IMG/VR virus record: IMGVR_UViG_3300028886_000037
Coordinates: 183,924 to 247,923 of that record
From: a virus
Taxonomy: Duplodnaviria; Caudoviricetes
DNA length: 64,000 bases
Reading direction: 5' to 3' (one strand)
Within the stretch, counting starts at the first letter, position 1, and each line of letters opens with the position of its first letter. Under the pieces are notes generated by a model. That model was not told the DNA's origin and searched no databases. It was given only the letters and a program-made list of their open reading frames with translations. Both the position numbers and the translations under genes were made by a program. Shown piece by piece: positions 1-64,000 of the stretch.

Positions 1-495
1 GAACTTCTGCTCGCCACGCTCATCGTCTGTGCCTTCGAAAGTCACGACGAAGCTTCCAGGCTCTGGTACGGGCTGCTCTTCAGTATTGGCGAAGTCGACG
101 AGTTCTAGACCATCATATTTCAGAATGAAGAAAAAGTCATTCTCTCCGATTGCAGTTCTACCGTGATGTCCGATCAAGCACTCGTTCTTTTCGAGTTCAG
201 GTGCGAGATAGACCTTGATGACTCCATTGAGAGTTCCCAAGTAGCCATATTCAGAGACTTTATCCGGACGTTCGGCCATGAAGATCGGATCAGCATTGAG
301 AGCAGTTCCTACAGCTTCGCCCACATAGAGACAGTCGCCACAGTAGTTGCACTTTGCTTGACAGTCGTTAGCAGCGTGCAGGATAGTAGCGATGAGGCGT
401 CCAATTCTAGCACGGCTCCACGTCATTCCATCGTTCTATGCTAGAGTGAAGTTTCTCGGTTCTGCATTTTCCTTTAGTTTCTTGATGTCGATCAT
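1..495 (-). pseudogene. gp23 major-capsid A-domain-like protein, interrupted by in-frame TAG at codon 20 (436-438); runs off window
   Basis: Manual translation from ATG 495 (SD AAGGA): MIDIKKLKENAEPRNFTLA*NDGMTW...LIATILHAAND...VGEAVGTAL...YLGTLNGVIKVYLAPELEKNECLIGHHG, resembling gp23 'AGVLNGRYKVYIDPY..Y..VGYKG'. Confidence 0.55.
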
Positions 496-527
496 TTGTG
501 TTCCTTTTTTTTGAATTTCCCTGTCCT

Positions 528-797
528 TTATGCTCGATGGCGGAAGTTGCCTTTCTCATCTTTCACGATCTCGTCGACGAATTCGAACTTCCGTCTGATC
601 TTGATAACTGCATGGTCGTGTGAAAACTTGTGATGAGTCTTGTAAAAAGTCATCATTCTGTAAGCGCTTCTAGGAGACCTGAAGGTTTTAGCTGCAGGAA
701 GAAAGTCTGTCACTGGTACATTTTCTCCGATATACATAGCTTTTCCGGGCTGTTCTGGTCTCTCGAACTTGACTACATAGATGAAATCTTGGATCAT
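528..797 (-). CDS. hypothetical protein (paralog of 935-1210 and 20395-20679)
   Basis: ORF; shared YVVK...YI...T....AK.F pattern. Confidence 0.75.
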   Translation of the reverse strand: MIQDFIYVVKFERPEQPGKAMYIGENVPVTDFLPAAKTFRSPRSAYRMMTFYKTHHKFSHDHAVIKIRRKFEFVDEIVKDEKGNFRHRA

Positions 798-801
798 ATT
801 A

Positions 802-966
802 TTAGGATTTGATCTGTTTTTCCAAGTACCTTATGTACTTTTCAAGTTTCTTGATGTATTGGTCTCTATCGTCGCATGCGTTGTACCAAGCACTAAGAGA
901 CGCCATCTCTTCGATGTCGCCTATGCACTCGTACTCAGGCTTTTCTGGTTTCTTTACACTTCTCAT
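802..966 (-). CDS. small hypothetical protein (54 aa, MRSVKKPEKPEYEC...)
   Basis: Manual translation; fills gap between neighbouring genes. Confidence 0.6.
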   Translation of the reverse strand: MRSVKKPEKPEYECIGDIEEMASLSAWYNACDDRDQYIKKLEKYIRYLEKQIKS

Positions 967-1210
967 TTTCAATAATTCCTGTGATCTCGAAGGTGCGCTT
1001 CACTCGCAGAATTACGAAGTCATGTGCGAACCCGTTGTTGCGAGAGTGATACGATACGGATTGATTAGCGTTCTTCATAGTCTTGAAGAACTTAGCTTCT
1101 GAGAGCTCGGTCGTGTAGTAAGCGTCCTGACTGATATACTGCAAAATATCTTCGCCGTCTTTGCCACACGGCATCTTGCACTGTACTACGAAGTTCTCTA
1201 GTGTGATCAT
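935..1210 (-). CDS. hypothetical protein (paralog family)
   Basis: ORF; similar to 528-797 (AK.FK/R, HD.vIl.v.R.FE). Confidence 0.75.
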   Translation of the reverse strand: MITLENFVVQCKMPCGKDGEDILQYISQDAYYTTELSEAKFFKTMKNANQSVSYHSRNNGFAHDFVILRVKRTFEITGIIENEKCKETRKA

Positions 1211-1863
1211 TATAACCCCAGTTTGCTCTTGAGGTCAGCCAATACTGCTGGATCTTCAATATCGGTGACGTTGTTGATCTCTTTGTCCATGTCGATGATA
1301 TAGTCTTCCTTCTGGAAACGCTTGAGAACGACCTGAGGGCCAAACGTGTCTCGATTGATCTTACGCTGGTAAACTACGCCGTGCATATCGTTCTTGAGGA
1401 GCCACTGTCTCATCTGCTCGTCTTGAGGGTTCGATACGATGTCGACTAAGAGACTCTTCGTTGTCGGATTGATGTGAAGATGATGGATCTTGTCAGAGTT
1501 CCGGTCGATAGAAATTCTAGAGTACACTCTCATCATGCCGATGAAAGAATCTTCGCCTAGGACGAACTCCATGCTGCTCGATGGTTGAGCTATCCAGCCG
1601 CCGTCGTCGTTCGAGTGGACCTCTTCCTCACGCACTGCGACAGACAGCATGATTCCGCCGTCCCTGACGTTGGGTGTGTGCCATTGGAGAATGCTCGGAA
1701 TGTACCACTGCTTGAGTTTCTCATATTCCATGAGTTTCGGTATGAAGTATAGATCGATTCCTTCATTAGCTGTCGCCCATTCCTTGCGCTCCCAGTCATT
1801 CGCTTCATCCATAGACACTTTTCTGAAGCGCATAATCGGTTCGGCATTAGTTTCTTCGCTCAT
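1210..1863 (-). CDS. degenerate prohead protease (gp21)-like protein, catalytic His/Ser apparently lost
   Basis: FVLGEDSF..YSRISIDRNSDKIHHLHIN..LLVDIVSNP..HGVVYQR aligns by eye with this genome's gp21 ECLGELEH..YAKVNSKEAAIKICSLRMD..AKVLEYMP..MGVSSR. Confidence 0.55.
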   Translation of the reverse strand: MSEETNAEPIMRFRKVSMDEANDWERKEWATANEGIDLYFIPKLMEYEKLKQWYIPSILQWHTPNVRDGGIMLSVAVREEEVHSNDDGGWIAQPSSSMEFVLGEDSFIGMMRVYSRISIDRNSDKIHHLHINPTTKSLLVDIVSNPQDEQMRQWLLKNDMHGVVYQRKINRDTFGPQVVLKRFQKEDYIIDMDKEINNVTDIEDPAVLADLKSKLGL

Positions 1864-1884
1864 AAGTTCCTCTTGTTTTTGTAC

Positions 1885-1925
1885 AATCTAGAAAAAAGCG
1901 GTGCAAAACTAAATAGCCTTGCACC
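1885..1925 (-). promoter_or_regulatory. early promoter (TTTAGT-17-TAGATT) overlapping a terminator hairpin
   Basis: -10 at 1885-1890, -35 at 1908-1913, stem GGTGCAA/TTGCACC. Confidence 0.55.
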
Positions 1926-1950
1926 ACATTTTCTTTGATTTTACGTATTT

Positions 1951-2340
1951 TTAAGCGGGAATGAACGAAATGTGGATGTCTGTGATCTGATTGTCATCTT
2001 GTCTCTTGACTTTTATGGAGTCGACCGAGACTAGATTGATTCCTAGCTGATTGACGATGAATTCGCCGAGCTTGTTCGCTGCAGGATCTTCTTTCATATC
2101 TTGCATGAGATTGTTCTGCTTTTTCATGTACTTGTCCACGTCGAAGGGGAGTTCGACATGCAGCGAGTAGCCGTTGTTGATGACGCCATACTTCACCTTG
2201 CAGTCTTCCTTGCATTTCTTCATCGCTTCACGTAGTCTTTCCCAAGACTTCTGAGAGACATCATACTCCAGAACGCCATCGGCATAGTCTAGAAAGTCGT
2301 AGAGTCTCTCTTCGAGATTTGTTAGTTCACGTTTGATCAT
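1951..2340 (-). CDS. hypothetical protein
   Basis: ORF with SD GAGG. Confidence 0.75.
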   Translation of the reverse strand: MIKRELTNLEERLYDFLDYADGVLEYDVSQKSWERLREAMKKCKEDCKVKYGVINNGYSLHVELPFDVDKYMKKQNNLMQDMKEDPAANKLGEFIVNQLGINLVSVDSIKVKRQDDNQITDIHISFIPA

Positions 2341-2355
2341 ACTCTTTCCTCTTCT

Positions 2356-2913
2356 TTAGTCTTCTTTAGGAGCGAACGGGTTCTTGATGACCTTAGCCTT
2401 AGTGCTCTTCAACTGGCCAGGATCGTCGTCCCAGATGTGAAGATGGTCATACTGGAATGTTCCGGAGAAGGATCCAGTCAGCGAGAGTGCGATGCCGAAG
2501 CCCTCGTTAGCCATAGCTGTCAGAAGCTCGATGTTATCTTGCGTAGGAATGACCTTCACTTCTGCGTAGATAGTGCCCTGCCATTCCTCTTTCTCGTCTG
2601 GATTCCTGACGAGCTCGGGTCTGCGAACGAAGAACATCGGCTTGCCGTTCACTTCGAGGATCATCTTGCCAAGGATCCAGTAGCGATGATCTTCAGTCGT
2701 CAGATATTCGGCATCCATGCCCTTGAGAGAGTCAAAAGCAGTTCCACCGCCAAATCCGCCATAGTACATGTAGTTCGATCCGAAGGAAACCTTGATCCAT
2801 AGCTCGTCTGAATTGTTCTGATCTTTTTCACAGACCCAACGCCCTTCGCGAGTCTTAAGTATCTCTTTCAGCATCTTGCTCGTGATTAGCGGTCTGAATA
2901 GATTGTCTAGCAT
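2356..2913 (-). CDS. second degenerate gp21-like protein (weaker similarity)
   Basis: TIYAEVKVIPTQDNIELL..GIALSLTG..DHLHIWD vs gp21 FAIGKAKVLEYMPNGKML..MGVSSRG..FHLITID. Confidence 0.4.
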   Translation of the reverse strand: MLDNLFRPLITSKMLKEILKTREGRWVCEKDQNNSDELWIKVSFGSNYMYYGGFGGGTAFDSLKGMDAEYLTTEDHRYWILGKMILEVNGKPMFFVRRPELVRNPDEKEEWQGTIYAEVKVIPTQDNIELLTAMANEGFGIALSLTGSFSGTFQYDHLHIWDDDPGQLKSTKAKVIKNPFAPKED

Positions 2914-4238
2914 TCTTCATTCTCCATAGGCTTAATTCTATCTACGATAGCTCGTTCAAGTTCGTGAAGCTTCTCGTAGGAACAGATCATTCCCTGCCAT
3001 AGACCTTTTCGTTCGCCATATCCCTTTTCTGATAAGACGGCAAAGTAGGACCCTGGCAGGACTTCATCTCTGTTCTCGAAGTACACGCAGTATTCTTTAT
3101 ATCCGTTCTCGTATCTGATGTAGTGGCAGCTTCCGTTGTCCTCGCGCTTGTACTCGATCCGGTAGTTGTAGAGCAGCTTCTCGATTTTCTCGATTGGCAT
3201 CTTCCAGACGGGAATATCCTCACTCTCTTCTGACTGTTCCTTAACAGGTTCTTTAGGAGCCTCTTCTGGCTGTTCGTTGTTAGCCTCTTTAGGCTTTTCA
3301 TCTTCCAGAATCGAATCGAGCTCAGCGAGATATTTCTCCATGCTCTCTGGATTGAACACGTCGTCTCGGTAGATTACGCAACCGACCTTTACATCTGGAT
3401 CTATGTCGAACTTGCTGATCGTAACGAGGTTGCTCAGATCTTGTTTCAGTTCGAACTTGATTCTGTACTTGTGATTGCCGAGTTCGAATCTTACTGTATA
3501 GGCAGATCCATAGTCTTTAGCCTCAAATGGAAGTCCGTGATCATTCAGCTTTCTCTCAGTGAGTTCAGCTACGCAGTCCCACTCGACCCTGGTAGGTTCT
3601 AGCTTCTTGAAACCTATCTGGTCGTCTTTTCTGACAGCGCCCGCCTTAGCCATCTTAGCTTTCTGACAGCAGACCCCATGAATGCACTCGCCGCATGTCT
3701 CTGTGCTAGGAATGCAGATATCCGGATCGAACACGTACTTGTCTCCGACCTTTTCTGCTACCTGAAAGTATCTCGGATCCTTAGGTTGTTCATCTACTGG
3801 AGACAGATCGCTAAGGTAGCGCTCCTGGAACTCTTCATCAGTCTCTTGATTATCATCAGGCTGTGTCTCTTCGGTCTTACCCACGATGCTGTCGAATCCA
3901 GCTACGCCCATCATGTGTTCCTCGAACTCGATTAGCGTGACCGTGTCAGCGTCAACATATCGGATGAGAATGTAGCCAGGCTTGTTCATCGGATGGAAGA
4001 TGTCGGGAATGAGCTCGAACTGATTACCCTCGATCTGACCCTGCCACAGCATATTGCCAATTGGCTCTAGACGCATGATGAGACTCAGCGCCGTGAGAAT
4101 GTCTGGCGTAGTGATCATCACGAATCTGCGCTTCAGATTAGCAGTGATCTTGATGAATTCGGTGATCTGACGGAACTTGTCGATCGGAAACAAGTCGTCT
4201 GACGGTTGAAAGTGAAATGTGCTCTTTAAGATTTTCAT
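2907..4238 (-). CDS. multidomain hypothetical; N-terminal gp23 A-domain-like segment, CxxC cluster, acidic linkers
   Basis: FVMITTPDILTAL...WQGQIEGNQFELIPDIF...YILIRY resembles gp23 FIICSxDVASAL...AGVLNGRYKVYIDPY...YYVVGY. Confidence 0.45.
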   Translation of the reverse strand: MKILKSTFHFQPSDDLFPIDKFRQITEFIKITANLKRRFVMITTPDILTALSLIMRLEPIGNMLWQGQIEGNQFELIPDIFHPMNKPGYILIRYVDADTVTLIEFEEHMMGVAGFDSIVGKTEETQPDDNQETDEEFQERYLSDLSPVDEQPKDPRYFQVAEKVGDKYVFDPDICIPSTETCGECIHGVCCQKAKMAKAGAVRKDDQIGFKKLEPTRVEWDCVAELTERKLNDHGLPFEAKDYGSAYTVRFELGNHKYRIKFELKQDLSNLVTISKFDIDPDVKVGCVIYRDDVFNPESMEKYLAELDSILEDEKPKEANNEQPEEAPKEPVKEQSEESEDIPVWKMPIEKIEKLLYNYRIEYKREDNGSCHYIRYENGYKEYCVYFENRDEVLPGSYFAVLSEKGYGERKGLWQGMICSYEKLHELERAIVDRIKPMENEEC

Positions 4239-8088: not shown

Positions 8089-8129
8089 AATATAAGAAAA
8101 TCTGAGAGGATAGTAAACCTCCCAGATTT
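8089..8129 (-). promoter_or_regulatory. early promoter TTTACT-17-TATATT with -35 in loop of a terminator hairpin
   Basis: -10 8089-8094, -35 8112-8117; stem 8098-8109/8118-8129. Confidence 0.75.
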
Positions 8130-14923: not shown

Positions 14924-15640
14924 TTATTTTCGAGAATCCGAGAAAGCGAGCTTTTCAGCGAGCTCTTTCTGGTCCTTCTTTGAGAGCTTCGGTTCGACAT
15001 CTGCTGCCTTGAGCTTCTTTGGACCTTTAGCAGTGAAAGCGTAGAAGTCATGTATAGACTTAGTCTCGCCATACGGAGACTTAGCAGAGATCACGTAGCA
15101 GATCTCGTTGCCATGTTCGTCGCAGAGATTGTCGAATTCGATCATGCGGACCTGATAGCGGTCAGGCGACGGGTAGTACGGGAACTTGATAAGCGGTCCG
15201 AAGAACTTCTCGGCGATAACGTCGCCCTTGTTAGAAGTGCAAGTGCAGAAGTGATCCTTCTCTGCGTAGCAAGTGCATACGAGATCGATGTCGTGATACT
15301 TGTAAGTTCCATCGGGCATCTTTTTGCGGAACAGAGAGAATCTGCGGAGACACTGGTCTTCGCCAGTGAGGGAGTCCTTGCTGGACCAGCAGTCTTCGTC
15401 TTCCTCGATCGCGGTGAGCGGAGCTTCTCTCAATAGACGGATGAGAATGTTCGCAGTGATCGACCAAGACATTCCCGAGTGATCGTCTTCGCACATGCAG
15501 TGATATGCCTTGAGCGCAGATTGGTAGCAAGCATTCGCATAGCCGACTCCGATACCTTTGTCATCGTCTTTATCGGCTGCCTTGCGTTCCTTGTCCATCG
15601 CGATAGCGACTTCGTTCTTCGCCCACTGTTCTGTTGTCAT
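14924..15640 (-). CDS. conserved phage hypothetical protein (DHSGMS motif)
   Basis: ORF; EDDHSGMSW..PLTAI..QC.R...LF pattern. Confidence 0.75.
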   Translation of the reverse strand: MTTEQWAKNEVAIAMDKERKAADKDDDKGIGVGYANACYQSALKAYHCMCEDDHSGMSWSITANILIRLLREAPLTAIEEDEDCWSSKDSLTGEDQCLRRFSLFRKKMPDGTYKYHDIDLVCTCYAEKDHFCTCTSNKGDVIAEKFFGPLIKFPYYPSPDRYQVRMIEFDNLCDEHGNEICYVISAKSPYGETKSIHDFYAFTAKGPKKLKAADVEPKLSKKDQKELAEKLAFSDSRK

Positions 15641-21760: not shown

Positions 21761-21943
21761 TTAGACTTTTACGGTCTTCGTCTTGTCAAGCTCGACGGAC
21801 TGGATCTGGAAGATATGCCCGTAGGATTCTCTCAGGAATGCCTGAAGTTCACTACGGACCGTCTCTTCATCCTTTCCATAGCGCTTGAAGACTTCGGCTT
21901 CGCCGCCAATGAGGACTTCGCAGCGGTAACGCTTCTTACTCAC
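21761..21943 (-). CDS. small hypothetical protein
   Basis: GTGA overlap with upstream gene. Confidence 0.65.
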   Translation of the reverse strand: MSKKRYRCEVLIGGEAEVFKRYGKDEETVRSELQAFLRESYGHIFQIQSVELDKTKTVKV

Positions 21944-23445
21944 TTGATGACCTCATAGCGCTTGGAAAGCAGAGTTTCCTTCAAGACTTCGAACGGATCG
22001 AGCTTGTTAGAGAGCGCCATGTTGAGCACGTTCTGGCTGAAGCCAGAGAGGAGCTTGAGACCATACTTGTTCTCCTGAAGCGGAACTGCGTTGGTGCGAG
22101 AGTTGACGTTCCAGAAGACCATGCCCGGAAGATCGTAACCTTCTGCCTTGTACTTCTGACGGATGGACTCGAACACGGTCGGCAGATCCTTCGTGGAAGT
22201 TCTCTGCCAGCTGTAGCAAGAGCAAGTAGTTGCAGAGTCGAACTCCATGTCGGAGATGATCAGCACATCCGGGATCTGGTCCTGCTTCATGTGATTGCTC
22301 TTAGCCACGTTCAGGATGAGATCCATAGTGGCCTCGATGTCAGTGTTGGAGCAGTCTGCTTCTCGGTAAGCCAAGTTCATCTTGTCTCGAAGAGTCATCT
22401 TCTGACCGAACTTCACGAGCTTCGGCTTGTTACCGAAGGTGATGAACTCGTTCTCGAAGCCAGGAGCAGCGTGCTCAGAGCAGTAGATTGCGAGAGCAGT
22501 TGCGACGTCGAGCGCATGGACACTAGTACCGCCGACCGGGCATTCCATAGAGCCAGAGCCGTCGCGAACGACGATCATCGGCTTGGTCATCTCGATGGAC
22601 TTCAGGTTCTTCCACATACCCTCGAGCGCCGGATCGACGGTAGAGCTGTATTCTCCAGACTGACAGCGGTACTTGTATACCACTTCGTGCGGGAAAGCAG
22701 CAGAAGCGTTGATCTTGGCTTCGCCCTTGGTTAGCTTACCGAGGAATTCACGACGACGAGCTTCGTCATGCTTGAGGAACGCGTCCTTGTACTTCAGGTT
22801 AGCATGAGACGGAACAGCTTCGTAGTTCACGTCGCTCCATTCGTTCTTACATAGCTTGACTTCGATCACATTCGAGTAAGCGCGAAGCTTGGAGAGAGTC
22901 TTACGATATTCCGACGGCTTCATACCGAGGAGTGCGCAAAGCTTGTTAGCCTTAGCGACCGTTTCCTTGGAGGAAGTGTTCACAGACGGCATCCACTTAG
23001 CGAGCAGCGAGATCGGCTTTCCGGCCTTCATATCGGCGAGATCGATGTCGAGACGTTCCTTGATTAGTTCCACGACTTCCTTCTCGACAGCGGTGCCGAG
23101 CAGTTCAGTCACGATGTCCCAGCGAGAGTAGTCCGGGATGAACTTGATCAACCACGGGTACTTCGGCAAGACGTTCTTGACGAGGATCTTGAACAGACGG
23201 CGCTCGCCGAGACCTTCACGAACGTCACCCGCATAGAACATCCACTTGATAGCGAGTTCCGGGGTTTCTGCGAAAGCCTTCAGAAAGTCAGACAAGATAG
23301 TGCCCTCGTCCGCAGTGCGGTAAGACGCTACCTTGTAGTTCATATCCAAGAGGGCGTGGCCAGAGGTTTCATAACCGACACCACCGTTCTCGGTGAGAGT
23401 CTTGTTATTCTTGAGGATCTTTTCCATTTTGGAATAGAATGACAT
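21940..23445 (-). CDS. DUF2828 / TROVE-like protein with C-terminal vWA (MIDAS) domain
   Basis: TENG, DVREGLGER, SLLAKWMPS, VRDGSGSM, IISDMEFD, VFWNV, LSGFS motifs; start corrected to 23445 (SD GAAGGAAG). Confidence 0.85.
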   Translation of the reverse strand: MSFYSKMEKILKNNKTLTENGGVGYETSGHALLDMNYKVASYRTADEGTILSDFLKAFAETPELAIKWMFYAGDVREGLGERRLFKILVKNVLPKYPWLIKFIPDYSRWDIVTELLGTAVEKEVVELIKERLDIDLADMKAGKPISLLAKWMPSVNTSSKETVAKANKLCALLGMKPSEYRKTLSKLRAYSNVIEVKLCKNEWSDVNYEAVPSHANLKYKDAFLKHDEARRREFLGKLTKGEAKINASAAFPHEVVYKYRCQSGEYSSTVDPALEGMWKNLKSIEMTKPMIVVRDGSGSMECPVGGTSVHALDVATALAIYCSEHAAPGFENEFITFGNKPKLVKFGQKMTLRDKMNLAYREADCSNTDIEATMDLILNVAKSNHMKQDQIPDVLIISDMEFDSATTCSCYSWQRTSTKDLPTVFESIRQKYKAEGYDLPGMVFWNVNSRTNAVPLQENKYGLKLLSGFSQNVLNMALSNKLDPFEVLKETLLSKRYEVIK

Positions 23446-23454
23446 TTGAGTTAC

Positions 23455-23542
23455 TTCCTTCGGTTCAAAGTTGACGAGATGGAATTTGATTGTGCGAACC
23501 ATGCATAAAAAAAAATTGCTGTGACCATCTCTCGTTTTGTGT
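23455..23542 (-). ncRNA. candidate structured 5' leader of the DUF2828 gene
   Basis: Stem ACGAGA(GA)TGG/CCATCTCGT enclosing CACAGCAA, U9 and GGTTCG, which can pair with TGAACC next to the SD. Confidence 0.45.
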
Positions 23543-30517: not shown

Positions 30518-31207
30518 TTAGATGTGGCGATATACTTCGAAGAATTCTTTGAACGCCTCGGCGACAGCCTTAGATCCGCCAGCGTCAAGCTTCTTGTCGA
30601 AAGCTTCCTTAGCGGGCTCAAGAGTCTTGATAGCCTCTTCTGGTGTGTGCTGGATGCGCTTCTCGATGTAGAGACCAGTGGACTCGTTCAATACCCACTC
30701 ATAGGACTCGTTCACTGCGTTGACGTAAGCGTCCGGACATGAAGGTCCGAGAACTGCGTCAATAGTGATCAAGTGGAAGTTGGACTCCACGATACCAGTG
30801 TCTTCGTTCACGTCGCCAACGCCTCTAGAGGAGACGCCCATTCTCACGTCGACGAGAAGACCAGCGAGCATCTTGCCGTTCGGCATATACTCAAGAACCT
30901 TAGCCTTGCCGATAGCGAAGTCCTCGTCCATGCGTAGAGAGCAGATCTTGATTGCTGCTTCCTTGGAGTTCACCTTCGCATATTCCGGGTGCTCTAGCTC
31001 ACCAAGGCACTCGTTGCTGTTGATCAGCTTGTTCAAGGACGTTACTTCTCGTTCGATCAATTCACGCGGATAAGTTCTACCATTTCTGTTCTTCTTTCCA
31101 GCTCCCATGAAGACGCCCTCGATGTACAGAGACTTAGACTCGTTGTCTCTATTAGAAGTGACGTCGCTGAGATACGCTTCGTTCAAAAGTTTCTTATGTT
31201 CAGCCAT
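30518..31207 (-). CDS. gp21: prohead core protease (T4 gp21)
   Basis: LYIEGVFM, KNRNGRTYP, GELEHP, GVSSRG, D.V..PS.PDAYV. Confidence 0.95.
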   Translation of the reverse strand: MAEHKKLLNEAYLSDVTSNRDNESKSLYIEGVFMGAGKKNRNGRTYPRELIEREVTSLNKLINSNECLGELEHPEYAKVNSKEAAIKICSLRMDEDFAIGKAKVLEYMPNGKMLAGLLVDVRMGVSSRGVGDVNEDTGIVESNFHLITIDAVLGPSCPDAYVNAVNESYEWVLNESTGLYIEKRIQHTPEEAIKTLEPAKEAFDKKLDAGGSKAVAEAFKEFFEVYRHI

Positions 31208-31237
31208 TTTACAGCTCCTTAAACTCTTTGTACCTAT

Positions 31238-31245
31238 TATTTATA
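31238..31245 (-). promoter_or_regulatory. T4-type late promoter TATAAATA
   Basis: Exact motif upstream of gp21. Confidence 0.8.
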
Positions 31246-38940: not shown

Positions 38941-39798
38941 TCATACTCCGAAGATTACGTTCATGTTGCATTCACCGATATGATTAGTGTATTGGAACTT
39001 GTTCTCTTTGATAAGCTTGCGTAATGCGTTTTTAGCTACGATCTGTGCTCTGTTTCTCTTCTGCCTTATACGTTCTCCAGAGAGGCCAAACTCTTCGCCA
39101 ATTTGATTCTGTGTCTTCCCGTAGAAGTAAGTGTCTTTGATGAGCTTATATTCCTTGCTGTCTAGAATTCCTTTCAGAAGGATGCCGAACTTTCGATCTT
39201 CCTCGTCTGAGTAGATGTTGTCGATCTCCTTGTAGTCTGCCTTTAGCGTGTCCGCGATAGTCATTCTGTCATCGTCGAACGCGCTATTTCCGTCATACAT
39301 CGGAATGTCGGTCGATAGAACAATAGGCATCGCATGGAGATATTTTCGTCCTTTGCTGTCTTCAGAAGCGAACTGCTCGACGCAAAGACGCCGAGCAGCT
39401 TCAGCCTTCGAGTACATCGGACAGTGAACCTTGCAGTTCTCGACATAGATCTCTTCTTGAATCTTCTGAGTGATCCACCAGATAGCGAATGAGGTAAACT
39501 TGACGCCTCTTCTCGGATCATACTTCAGCGTAGCGTTGAACATGCCCATATAGCCAGCTTGGAACATGTCTCCGACGACTTTGTTGTATCTCCGTGCATA
39601 CATATAGGCGACCCCGTAAACGAGCCGTATATGCGATTGTAGGAGCCTATTTCGAGCGGCATTCTGGATAGCCTTGCCATGCTTCGGATTCATCATGATG
39701 GCGATAGTGGCTTCCTCTTCCTTGGGATCCATGTGGATATAGTCTTTCAAGCGTCCACGAATGTAGCTTGAAGAGTCGACGGAGTCTAGTTCAATCAT
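38941..39798 (-). CDS. sigma-70 family RNA polymerase sigma factor
   Basis: Region 2 (HIRLV..VA..Y, KYDPRRGVKFTSFAIWWI) and region 4 (QIGEEFGLSGERIRQ). Confidence 0.9.
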   Translation of the reverse strand: MIELDSVDSSSYIRGRLKDYIHMDPKEEEATIAIMMNPKHGKAIQNAARNRLLQSHIRLVYGVAYMYARRYNKVVGDMFQAGYMGMFNATLKYDPRRGVKFTSFAIWWITQKIQEEIYVENCKVHCPMYSKAEAARRLCVEQFASEDSKGRKYLHAMPIVLSTDIPMYDGNSAFDDDRMTIADTLKADYKEIDNIYSDEEDRKFGILLKGILDSKEYKLIKDTYFYGKTQNQIGEEFGLSGERIRQKRNRAQIVAKNALRKLIKENKFQYTNHIGECNMNVIFGV

Positions 39799-39833
39799 AG
39801 TAGTTAGCCAAAATATAAGTTTATTTGTCAAAT

Positions 39834-57220: not shown

Positions 57221-57249
57221 AATATAGGTAATTCTATGAGAAATCTAAA
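57221..57249 (-). promoter_or_regulatory. early promoter TTTAGA-17-TATATT
   Basis: Motif match. Confidence 0.7.
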
Positions 57250-57967
57250 CCTCATTTTCTGCTTTTTCTTTGGCTTTCGCTGCTTCTAGATAGGGTGCCA
57301 GAGGTCCTATTCCCATCTCGTCTCTCACTTTGTCTACACTTGCGCAGAACCTGATCCAGTTCTTGTACTTGCATGTCGGACGTGAGCCTCTGGTGTAAGC
57401 TGCTATCATAGACTGACCGAAGCGAGTCTCGCATATCTTCTCGGGCGTCCAGCCGTTCAGGAGGTACGTGTAGAGCGCATGAATGACCTTCGTCCGGATA
57501 TAGCCGATCTTGAACGTGATCTTAGACGGATTTAAGCCGAGTTCGCCCAGAAGATCGGAAATCATGACCAAGTCGAACTGAAGATTCCAAGGAATGACAG
57601 ACGCACGCAGCGTGATGGTGACTTCGTCGTTAGTCAAGTGCATAGCTGTGAGACATCCGCCCTGAATGTGGTCGAACTCGTGCTGGACGTTCTTGAAGCG
57701 GAAGTCGGAAGAACCAGTCTTGACGAGCTCAGCGTGGGAACGGTCAAGCTCGCCCTCCTCCACGTAGATTCCTCTAAGGTGTGTCATCTTGTTCAGATGA
57801 CGCTTAGCCATTCTGTCGATGTCGCCGCCCTTGCTGTAGTTTCTCGATGTGCATTCGATAGTGACATCCTCCTCTCTGGAAGTGTTGCACTTGAAGTTGT
57901 TCATGGCCCAAGTGGCCGTCTGCTCGAAAACGTCGTCAAAGTCAGTGCAGTTGAAATGTAAACTCAT
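57245..57967 (-). CDS. divergent thymidylate-synthase/dCMP-hydroxymethylase-fold protein (paralog A)
   Basis: GGCL...LRASVIPWNLQFDL: Cys, Arg and Asp at R+11. Confidence 0.55.
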   Translation of the reverse strand: MSLHFNCTDFDDVFEQTATWAMNNFKCNTSREEDVTIECTSRNYSKGGDIDRMAKRHLNKMTHLRGIYVEEGELDRSHAELVKTGSSDFRFKNVQHEFDHIQGGCLTAMHLTNDEVTITLRASVIPWNLQFDLVMISDLLGELGLNPSKITFKIGYIRTKVIHALYTYLLNGWTPEKICETRFGQSMIAAYTRGSRPTCKYKNWIRFCASVDKVRDEMGIGPLAPYLEAAKAKEKAENEV

Positions 57968-57969
57968 AT

Positions 57970-58620
57970 TTACTTTTGATCCTTTAGTTTCTCTTGAATC
58001 TTTCTCGCAATAGCCTTCATGCTATTGAATTTACATCTGTCCGTCAGAGCACGCTCGTAAGAAGTCCAGATCGATCTGCCGTAAGCTGTGTCCTGAATGT
58101 CTTCTCTGCTCATCCCGTATAGCACGAATGTGTAGAGATTGTGTACTGGCTTGGACGCCATGTAGCCGATCTTTATCGTGATCTGCTTCGGTGACAGACC
58201 GAGCTCATGGATCAGATCCGAGATCAATACCAAGTCGAACTGCAGGTTGTATGGTGCGATGGATGCTCGAATGTTGACGTTCACTTCGTCCTGCGTGTAC
58301 TCCATGCTAGTGAGACACGCGCCGTTGATGTGATTGTTCTTGCGATTCACTGAATTGAAGTTGAATGTTCCCTTTCCAGTCTTCATGTACTCGCGATGAG
58401 AACGATCTATCTCAGCTTCAGTCACGTATAGCTTACGCAGCTGATCCATCTTCTTTGGAAACGCTTTGATCACTTCTCGGATATACTGGCAGTCTGTCTT
58501 CTGAGCTGTAAGCGTTACGTCTTCCTCTTTAGCGAAGACAGAAGTGAAGTTGTCGAGTACGCACATCATCGTCTGACACAGCAGATCGTCGAAGGATATT
58601 CCCTTTATCTGTAAGCTCAT
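57970..58620 (-). CDS. divergent thymidylate-synthase/dCMP-hydroxymethylase-fold protein (paralog B)
   Basis: GACL...IRASIAPYNLQFDL; clear paralog of 57245-57967. Confidence 0.55.
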   Translation of the reverse strand: MSLQIKGISFDDLLCQTMMCVLDNFTSVFAKEEDVTLTAQKTDCQYIREVIKAFPKKMDQLRKLYVTEAEIDRSHREYMKTGKGTFNFNSVNRKNNHINGACLTSMEYTQDEVNVNIRASIAPYNLQFDLVLISDLIHELGLSPKQITIKIGYMASKPVHNLYTFVLYGMSREDIQDTAYGRSIWTSYERALTDRCKFNSMKAIARKIQEKLKDQK

Positions 58621-58621
58621 A

Positions 58622-59272
58622 TTACGTCCTCTTGTAGCCGAGAATGACCTCACGAGTTCTGTTCTTCCAGAATTCTTTGATGTGCTTAGGGAATTTCTCT
58701 GGTCCGTCGCGTTCGATTAGAAGCTCAGTTATGAGGGTCATAGCAGCGCCATAAGCGTCGATTACGTCACTTGCGCCGGGTTGTCCCTTCTTGCCATTAG
58801 TCACTGGAGGAAAGATGCTCAAATCTGGCTTTACGAGCGTAACTCGCTTGTAAGCGTCGAACATACCCTTCTTGTCTGAGTTTCCGTGACCCGAGAAAAC
58901 CTTCTTGATGGTCATCGGAGAATAGAGGTATAGAGGCTTACCCATGCGCCAGACCGACTGTCTGATCCAGCCTTCGAACTCAGCCAAGTCGAACACTAGG
59001 CCAGTCGCTCCAGCAGCGCCGAAAGCGTAGTCTTCTGCTGAGACATAGTCAGCGTCTTCGACAAACTTCAGGATTCGATCCTGCATGAACTTGTATTTGT
59101 CGTATTTGCTGTTCCAGTCGTCGTTAGAGTACCAGATAGACTTTTCGCTAGCATACTTCTTGGTAGTCGTGAACGTCAGCCAGTCCGCGTTCAGGATATT
59201 CAATCTCTCGTCCAGTTCCAGTTTCACAGCGCCCGTGTGGGTCACTGACATGTCCAGTCCCGCTATCTTCAT
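58622..59272 (-). CDS. RuvC-like Holliday junction resolvase
   Basis: IAGLDMS..TG, AEDYAFG, P.TIKK..SG.GNSDK, DVIDAY. Confidence 0.85.
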   Translation of the reverse strand: MKIAGLDMSVTHTGAVKLELDERLNILNADWLTFTTTKKYASEKSIWYSNDDWNSKYDKYKFMQDRILKFVEDADYVSAEDYAFGAAGATGLVFDLAEFEGWIRQSVWRMGKPLYLYSPMTIKKVFSGHGNSDKKGMFDAYKRVTLVKPDLSIFPPVTNGKKGQPGASDVIDAYGAAMTLITELLIERDGPEKFPKHIKEFWKNRTREVILGYKRT

Positions 59273-63276: not shown

Positions 63277-64000
63277 TTAGTAATTTTCTGGCTTCTGCGG
63301 CTGATGCTTGTTGAATGAGTAGTTGTCATCAACGAGGTCAGCCAAGCACGTGCTTCCAGATTCAGAGAACGAGCACCACGGAACTGATCTGGTAGAGTAG
63401 ATATGCTTATAGTCGCCATCCTCTGTGTCTCCACCAGCCATTGAGCTGTCATAGACTAGATAGCCCTTGTTAGCGCTTCCGTCATAGCTATCTGGAACCC
63501 ACATGATTCTCTGGAGTAGAGCGTATAGCTTGAAGAGGTTGATTCGTCCCATAGAGAAGAAGTTGTAGTTTCCGTAGTTTGCATCGCTTCTTCTACCCTT
63601 GAGGAATCCGAGCTGGATTGCGCTAGAACCGTAGTCGATCGTTCTACCCTTGATGTCTGTCAGAGTTGACGTCGTCTCACGATTGTAGATAGTTCCAGTC
63701 CAGTCACCAACTGTCTGCTTTAATGTGCTGTCAGTGACTGCTATCTCCATAGCGTTGTACTTGAACTGCGGAATAGAGCTATTGCCGAAGTGATTGCCTC
63801 CGCCGAGAACGAACAGCTTACGCATGTGATTCTGGTAATAGCGCTGATTGTTCCAGCCCATGATGATGGTCGGGCCCTGAAGACTCGAATCCGTGTTGGA
63901 CATGTAGTAAGTCTGACGGATGTCGTTTCTAAGGCCCTTACCGAAGAGGAAGACGTTAGATTCACTGTCATACTTCGGATTCTGAGTAGTTTCGTCAAAT
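63277..64000 (-). CDS. C-terminal part of a probable structural protein; frame open to the window edge
   Basis: No stop between 63903 and 63999 in frame. Confidence 0.65.
   Translation of the reverse strand, partial: FDETTQNPKYDSESNVFLFGKGLRNDIRQTYYMSNTDSSLQGPTIIMGWNNQRYYQNHMRKLFVLGGGNHFGNSSIPQFKYNAMEIAVTDSTLKQTVGDWTGTIYNRETTSTLTDIKGRTIDYGSSAIQLGFLKGRRSDANYGNYNFFSMGRINLFKLYALLQRIMWVPDSYDGSANKGYLVYDSSMAGGDTEDGDYKHIYSTRSVPWCSFSESGSTCLADLVDDNYSFNKHQPQKPENY

What the first reader, a model, noticed from the sequence alone, without database searches (positions are those of the whole stretch)
1..4238. Early-region cluster of degenerate head-protein copies (two gp21 protease-like, two gp23 A-domain-like): possible immune decoys
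Seen: 1210-1863 aligns by eye to this genome's own gp21 (LGE..YSRISIDRNSDKIHHL vs LGE..YAKVNSKEAAIKICSL) but lacks the ELEH His and the GVSSRG motif. 2356-2913 resembles the C-half of gp21 more weakly. 1-495 and the N-terminus of 2907-4238 resemble the gp23 axial-domain segment (GTLNG.IKVY). All lie under host-type early promoters, far from the real gp21 under TATAAATA. Known: prohead proteases and major capsid proteins trigger anti-phage systems (CBASS, CapRel, Lit/Gol). Inference: early, inactive mimics could titrate such sensors, or poison head assembly of competing phages.
Basis: partly seen in the sequence, partly recalled or inferred. Interest (0 to 1): 0.8.

Follow-up and report, generated by a model that had tools for sequence, protein, structure and literature searches.

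The report
Early capsid-fragment genes in rumen phage
A large uncultured T4-like rumen phage keeps a conserved loose piece of its own coat protein, and probably a dead copy of its head protease, among its early genes; these may serve as decoys for bacterial virus sensors, but that role is untested and two of the four proposed copies could not be confirmed.

Summary
Partly confirmed. The window lies in a 248-kb T4-like phage genome whose relatives come mostly from rumen-type metagenomes. ORF A (1-495, running off the window) is a real stand-alone copy of the gp23 axial domain: profile probability 94-97%, 21/21 family members hit Pfam Gp23, best match is the lineage's own capsid. ORF C (2356-2913) is probably a dead gp21-fold protein: weak structure and language-model hits both point to prohead proteases (about 60%). 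ORF B (1210-1863) is not supported: its confident model matches no gp21. The D N-terminus is unproven and lacks the cited motif. All four are under purifying selection and behind two host-type early promoters, with no late promoter nearby. Relatives carry more gp23-fragment mini-genes and a clear dead gp21 in the same region. Best reading: head-gene pieces recycled as early decoys for capsid or protease sensors (about 0.33); reuse for unrelated jobs is nearly as likely. I found no paper describing this. The scan noted similar fragment genes in other phage genomes.

The parts
1..495 (-). ORF A: stand-alone gp23 axial-domain fragment (about 95-110 aa matching own gp23 279-381) fused to an unrelated C-terminal module of about 50-70 aa; runs 102 nt off the left end (genome 183822-184418); 197-200 aa in close relatives
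   Evidence: dN/dS 0.16-0.25 over the gp23-like part
436..438 (-). In-frame TAG at codon 20 of ORF A (GAG in aligned relatives); a downstream ATG at 424-426 could give a 175-aa product holding the whole gp23-like part
   Evidence: same TAG in a Logan assembly identical over 3400 nt; genome uses TAG as an ordinary stop
528..1210 (-). Two paralogous small ORFs (528-797, 89 aa; 935-1210, 91 aa) and a 56-aa ORF between B and A; no head-protein likeness found
1210..1863 (-). ORF B, 217 aa, conserved lineage-specific protein; gp21 origin not supported (about 20%); model is an alpha/beta protein with a long beta-meander and no clear structural match
   Evidence: dN/dS 0.23-0.36
1885..1927 (-). Terminator-like hairpin (1927-1898) whose loop holds the -35 box of an early-type promoter (TTTAGT at 1913, 17 nt, TAGATT at 1890); ends the D-C unit and starts the B-to-A unit; conserved in relatives
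1951..2340 (-). 129-aa ORF between C and B, present in some relatives only; no family
2356..2913 (-). ORF C, 185 aa, probable degenerate prohead-protease (gp21) fold; His position is Arg in 40/48 rows, Ser position is Ser 22, Asp 15, Thr 7 of 48
   Evidence: dN/dS 0.18-0.27
2907..4238 (-). ORF D, 443 aa multidomain protein overlapping C; N-terminal about 120 aa (3879-4238) is the most constrained part and only weakly gp23-like (about 35%)
   Evidence: dN/dS 0.06-0.09 for residues 1-120
8089..8117 (-). Early-type promoter (TTTACT-17-TATATT), nearest one upstream of D and C
30518..31245 (-). Reference: the real gp21 prohead protease (30518-31207, intact catalytic His73 and Ser126) behind a TATAAATA late promoter (31238-31245)

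Best explanation
These are early accessory genes of a rumen T4-like phage lineage that has repeatedly recycled pieces of head genes. SHOWN: A is an excised gp23 axial domain from the lineage's own capsid gene, kept under purifying selection, behind an early-type promoter about 100 kb from gp23; relatives add other gp23 excerpts and a dead gp21 in the same region. PROBABLE: C is a gp21-fold protein without a conserved catalytic pair. INFERRED: being made before any real head protein, the fragment (and possibly C) occupies host sensors that recognise the capsid A-domain or the protease without completing their activation, so the sensors are blunted when real gp23 and gp21 appear late. B and the D N-terminus are neighbours of unproven origin. 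In this particular genome A is either decaying or made as a 175-aa re-initiated form.
For: A vs gp23 hhalign 94-97%; A-family fragments score best against this phage's own gp23 among 84 capsids; dN/dS 0.06-0.36 for the four ORFs over the tested parts; early promoters at 1913 and 8117 and no TATAAATA below 12005. Relatives carry separate mini-genes matching gp23 about 109-139, 345-387 and 78-91 plus 409-426 and a dead gp21 (L195, hhalign 75%). This genome has another 30-aa gp23 excerpt at 83% protein but 72% DNA identity. Avs7, Avs8 and Avs10 bind the penton/hexon-forming face of the capsid A-domain (10.64898/2026.01.04.697583); CapRel contacts A-domain loops (PMC9712102); CBASS is triggered by active but not H85A/S140A gp21 (10.64898/2026.03.04.709575). 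A Tad3 anti-Thoeris gene lies at 14924-15640 in the same early region.
Against: No sensor, host or phenotype is identified. A is only 28% identical to own gp23 over 98 aa and lacks the P-domain and E-loop, whereas Avs7 buries 3,700 A2 across the whole fold; a fragment could fail to bind or could trigger the sensor. CBASS responds to proteolysis, and unrelated proteases also work, so a dead protease need not block it. A carries a premature stop here. B is not supported and D is weak. A carries a conserved unrelated C-terminal module and cysteines absent from gp23, which suggests a new job.
Confidence: 0.33

Rival explanations
1. Exaptation: duplicated head-gene pieces were reused as generic folded modules in early host-takeover proteins, and their present jobs have nothing to do with looking like a capsid or protease.
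For: Deep divergence (A 28% to own gp23; C and D at or near noise in sequence); A is fused to a module that also occurs alone (L003) and to other partners (P0016, P0017); D's N-terminus is replaced in one clade; A has its own conserved cysteines.
Against: Several different gp23 segments recur as tiny genes in one region across relatives, some too short to be useful scaffolds (48-63 aa). The retained residues are the gp23-conserved ones, and the 52-81 excerpt is conserved at protein level.
Confidence: 0.3
2. Assembly modulators or competitors: the fragments join or block head assembly, either tuning the phage's own head or poisoning co-infecting T4-like phages or satellites.
For: The A-domain forms the capsomer centre; the 63-aa mini-gene of relatives scores higher against foreign T4-like capsids than against this lineage's (own rank 38 of 84).
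Against: Early, not late, promoters; A is closest to the phage's own gp23, so a poison would hit self first.
Confidence: 0.17
3. Only A is head-derived; B, C and D are unrelated orphan proteins and the 'cluster' is by-eye pattern matching in an accessory region.
Against: For C, the named target gp21 came joint first of 48,161 chains and the language-model hits point to the same kind of protein; the sequence alignment gives the same register.
Confidence: 0.15
4. Neutral recombination debris or pseudogenes.
For: Premature TAG in A here; patchy presence of the mini-genes.
Against: dN/dS well below 1, intact lengths in dozens of relatives (clusters of 91, 40 and 169 members), conserved order and promoters.
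Confidence: 0.05

Closest known systems
T4 gp23 major capsid protein and its paralogue gp24 (Pfam PF07068; PDB 6UZC, 1YUE)
   Same: A matches the stretch of the axial domain from the W-x-x-x-R helix to the G-x-L-x-G strand and the following L-x-G strand (own gp23 279-381, about T4 343-440).
   Different: No N-arm, E-loop or P-domain; unrelated C-terminal module; early promoter; outside the head operon. gp24 is a near full-length late virion paralogue.
T4 gp21 prohead protease (PDB 5JBL; Peptidase S77/S80, clan SH)
   Same: C's model aligns over 103 residues ending at the catalytic Ser140 position; strand-helix-strand core in register.
   Different: No conserved His or Ser at the catalytic positions; no detectable Pfam match; early promoter. 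B shows no structural match.
Phage anti-defence mimics and sponges (DNA mimics such as Ocr, nucleotide sponges, antitoxin mimic Gp145; EVADES set of 268, 10.1101/2025.06.06.658234; review PMC13728456)
   Same: Small early proteins proposed to bind a defence component without being its true trigger or substrate.
   Different: Known mimics copy DNA, signals or antitoxins; the EVADES text does not contain the word capsid and I found no paper on decoys made from the phage's own structural trigger.

Membership tests
T4-type major capsid protein gp23/gp24 (ORF A) | Homology to the gp23 family | tested here: met
   hhalign 94-97%; 21/21 members hit PF07068, best E 3.9e-6, query below the curated cut-off
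T4-type major capsid protein gp23/gp24 (ORF A) | Complete HK97 fold (N-arm, E-loop, P- and A-domains) | tested here: not met
   Match covers only about 95-110 of 449 residues; family length 128-200 aa
T4-type major capsid protein gp23/gp24 (ORF A) | Late gene in the head operon | tested here: not met
   No TATAAATA between genome 178558 and 195935; early-type promoter at window 1913
T4-type major capsid protein gp23/gp24 (ORF A) | Present in the virion shell | not testable with these tools
   Needs virion proteomics; phage is uncultured
gp23 A-domain fragment (ORF D N-terminus) | Significant sequence or fold match to the A-domain | tested here: inconclusive
   hhalign 1-5%, 0/40 to 5/100 shuffles, rank 5 of 262; no model made, no ESM hit
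Prohead protease gp21 (ORF C) | Clan-SH beta-barrel fold | tested here: inconclusive
Prohead protease gp21 (ORF C) | Conserved catalytic His and Ser with the G-V-S-S-R-G motif | tested here: not met
   His position Arg 40/48, His 1/48; Ser position Ser 22/48; Arg position Thr or Tyr
Prohead protease gp21 (ORF B) | Clan-SH beta-barrel fold | tested here: inconclusive
   pLDDT-84 model; gp21 not among listed matches in pdb, pdb_via_wide, viral, atlas, pdb_via; alignment shallow (Neff about 1.7) and no direct superposition possible
Prohead protease gp21 (ORF B) | Conserved catalytic His and Ser | tested here: not met
Phage anti-defence protein | Binds or suppresses a named defence system | not testable with these tools
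   Host unknown; needs experiments
Phage anti-defence protein | Early expression, accessory region with other anti-defence genes | tested here: met
   By promoter consensus only; Tad3 at 14924-15640

The most novel reading that the evidence does not exclude
This phage lineage encodes a dispersed early arsenal of decoys cut from its own immune triggers: several separate capsid excerpts and dead head proteases that pre-occupy capsid- and protease-sensing receptors (Avs7/8/10, Dsr1, CapRel, Thoeris, CBASS types) before the real head proteins are made. That would be an undescribed class of counter-defence.
Probability: 0.25. Interest if true: 0.85.

Novelty: new variant of a known kind. Interest (0 to 1): 0.55.

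Why it matters
Head proteins are among the commonest triggers of bacterial immunity and are hard for a phage to change. Known escapes are point mutations, signal sponges and direct inhibitors. A conserved, early, stand-alone A-domain, the surface that three Avs families bind, gives a ready test of whether phages can use their own trigger as a decoy. Even if not, it documents repeated recycling of capsid and protease pieces into accessory genes, which annotation pipelines miss or mislabel as capsid genes.

Full report
SETTING. The window is the last 64 kb of a 247,923-nt single contig with a terminal repeat. It is a T4-like myovirus: its gp21 (window 30518-31207) heads a family that hits T4 gp21 5JBL at E 3e-28, and its gp23 (genome 84982-86331, about 100 kb from the finding) heads one that hits T4 gp23 at E 3e-73. 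Relatives come from metagenome assemblies whose dataset names I recognise as rumen studies (own knowledge). The host is unknown. I call the four ORFs A (1-495), B (1210-1863), C (2356-2913) and D (2907-4238).

ORF A IS A REAL CAPSID FRAGMENT. It hits Pfam Gp23 (E 0.0014) and own gp23 280-377 at 28%. Family profiles give 94.1% (E 1.3e-7) and 96.6% (E 6e-10). No shuffle of 100 reaches the score, and among 262 genome ORFs only gp23 itself scores higher. All 21 family members hit PF07068. The matched stretch is about T4 gp23 343-440, which I place in the axial domain from own knowledge. Three A-family proteins each score best against this phage's own gp23 among 84 capsids, so the piece most likely came from the lineage's own gene. 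The rest of A is an unrelated module that also occurs alone. The TAG is also in a Logan assembly, possibly of the same sample, and the genome uses the standard code. An ATG at 424-426 could yield a 175-aa form with the whole gp23-like part; that is inference.

ORF B IS NOT SUPPORTED. The by-eye register is not recovered by any program, and the Glu of its LGE is Lys in 51/64 rows. The best profile match uses another register at 9.8% (0/100 column shuffles, 3/100 block shuffles; rank 4 of 262, within noise) and falls to 6.6% when a distant homologue is added. A pLDDT-84 model lists no prohead protease in four fold searches and one second look. A rearranged gp21 descendant is not excluded (about 20%).

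ORF D IS UNPROVEN. It lacks the GTLNG motif. Its N-terminus aligns to the same gp23 helix-strand as A but at 1-5% probability, 3-5/100 shuffles, rank 5 of 262. It is strongly constrained (dN/dS 0.06-0.09) and replaced in one clade. About 35%.

CONTEXT. The phage has a sharp host-type promoter consensus, 42 minus-strand copies versus 1.6 in shuffles. One at 8117 precedes the run holding D and C, which ends at a hairpin at 1927-1898; one at 1913 inside that hairpin precedes B and A; both are kept in relatives. TATAAATA is enriched (10 versus 0.74), absent below 12005 and present before gp21. So there are two early-type units, by consensus only. All four ORFs have dN/dS 0.06-0.36 over the tested parts (D's remainder 0.25-0.44), and order D-C-B-A recurs in several relatives, with parts missing in others. 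Relatives hold further excerpts in the same region: gp23 345-387, 109-139, and 78-91 joined to 409-426, plus a clear dead gp21 in L195 (75%). This genome has a further 30-aa excerpt elsewhere, 83% identical as protein and 72% as DNA. A Tad3 gene lies 10.7 kb upstream.

MECHANISM. Origin is shown for A and probable for C. Function is inferred. Avs7, Avs8 and Avs10 bind the capsomer-forming face of the A-domain (10.64898/2026.01.04.697583), CapRel contacts A-domain loops (PMC9712102), and CBASS is triggered by active but not dead gp21 (10.64898/2026.03.04.709575). An early fragment could fill such sensors without activating them. Against this: sensors read large surfaces, a fragment might activate or not bind, A is far diverged, and this genome's copy is interrupted. 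I give decoy 0.33, unrelated reuse 0.30, assembly interference 0.17, only-A-is-real 0.15, debris 0.05.

COMPARISON AND NOVELTY. A descends from gp23 but is not a capsid protein; C works at most like a dead gp21 and fails the catalytic test. Capsid paralogues (gp24) and anti-defence mimics are known; I found no paper on stand-alone early capsid excerpts or on decoys made from structural triggers, within a library that lacks most subscription papers. Other agents in this scan noted similar fragment genes in other phages, unchecked by me; one such bold reading was later rated 8/100, which tempered my odds. Verdict: new variant of a known kind, interest 0.55; if the decoy role holds, 0.85.

Noticed in passing
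genome G000 C1:135859-136524 (L202:1860-2525, minus), outside the window: 221-aa ORF with a 30-aa insert 83% identical to own gp23 52-81 (72% at DNA level), starting at a likely gp21 cleavage site; early-type promoter at 136585 and TATAAATA at 136851; cluster of 4.
   Followed up: partly
L010:11499-11690, L018:12210-12401, L195:10148-10355, L198:16431-16715, L008:14533-14808: 63-94 aa mini-genes matching gp23 about 345-387 (Pfam Gp23 E 5e-6, above cut-off for L010); not found in this genome.
   Followed up: partly
L010:12370-12516; L198:14853-15035; L018:11538-11702: 48-60 aa mini-genes matching gp23 109-139, or joining gp23 78-91 and 409-426.
   Followed up: partly
L195:3624-4082: 152-aa clear dead gp21 (hhalign 75%, no catalytic His or Ser motif) about 1.3 kb from a remote C homologue; not an orthologue of B or C.
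   Followed up: partly
window 14924-15640: Tad3-family anti-Thoeris gene (Pfam E 5e-20), also near the cluster in L198.
   Followed up: partly
window 1898-1927, 8098-8129, 16882, 21728, 26930, 30490: Many early promoters have their -35 box inside a terminator-like hairpin, so one element appears to end one unit and start the next.
   Followed up: no
window 38941-39831: Phage-encoded sigma-70-type factor (Pfam r2 and r4).
   Followed up: no
window 57245-57967 and 57970-58653: Tandem paralogues (42% identical) with possible thymidylate-synthase-like features (my impression, untested); may relate to DNA modification.
   Followed up: no
window 528-797 and 935-1210: Paralogous 89- and 91-aa ORFs between B and A; one is fused to A in relative L018 (P0016).
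   Followed up: partly
genome ends (window 63741-63998 and genome 1-244): Terminal repeat, so the contig is a circularly complete genome of about 247.6 kb.
   Followed up: partly
window 21940-23502: 520-aa DUF2828/DUF7788 (Ro60/vWA-like) gene.
   Followed up: no
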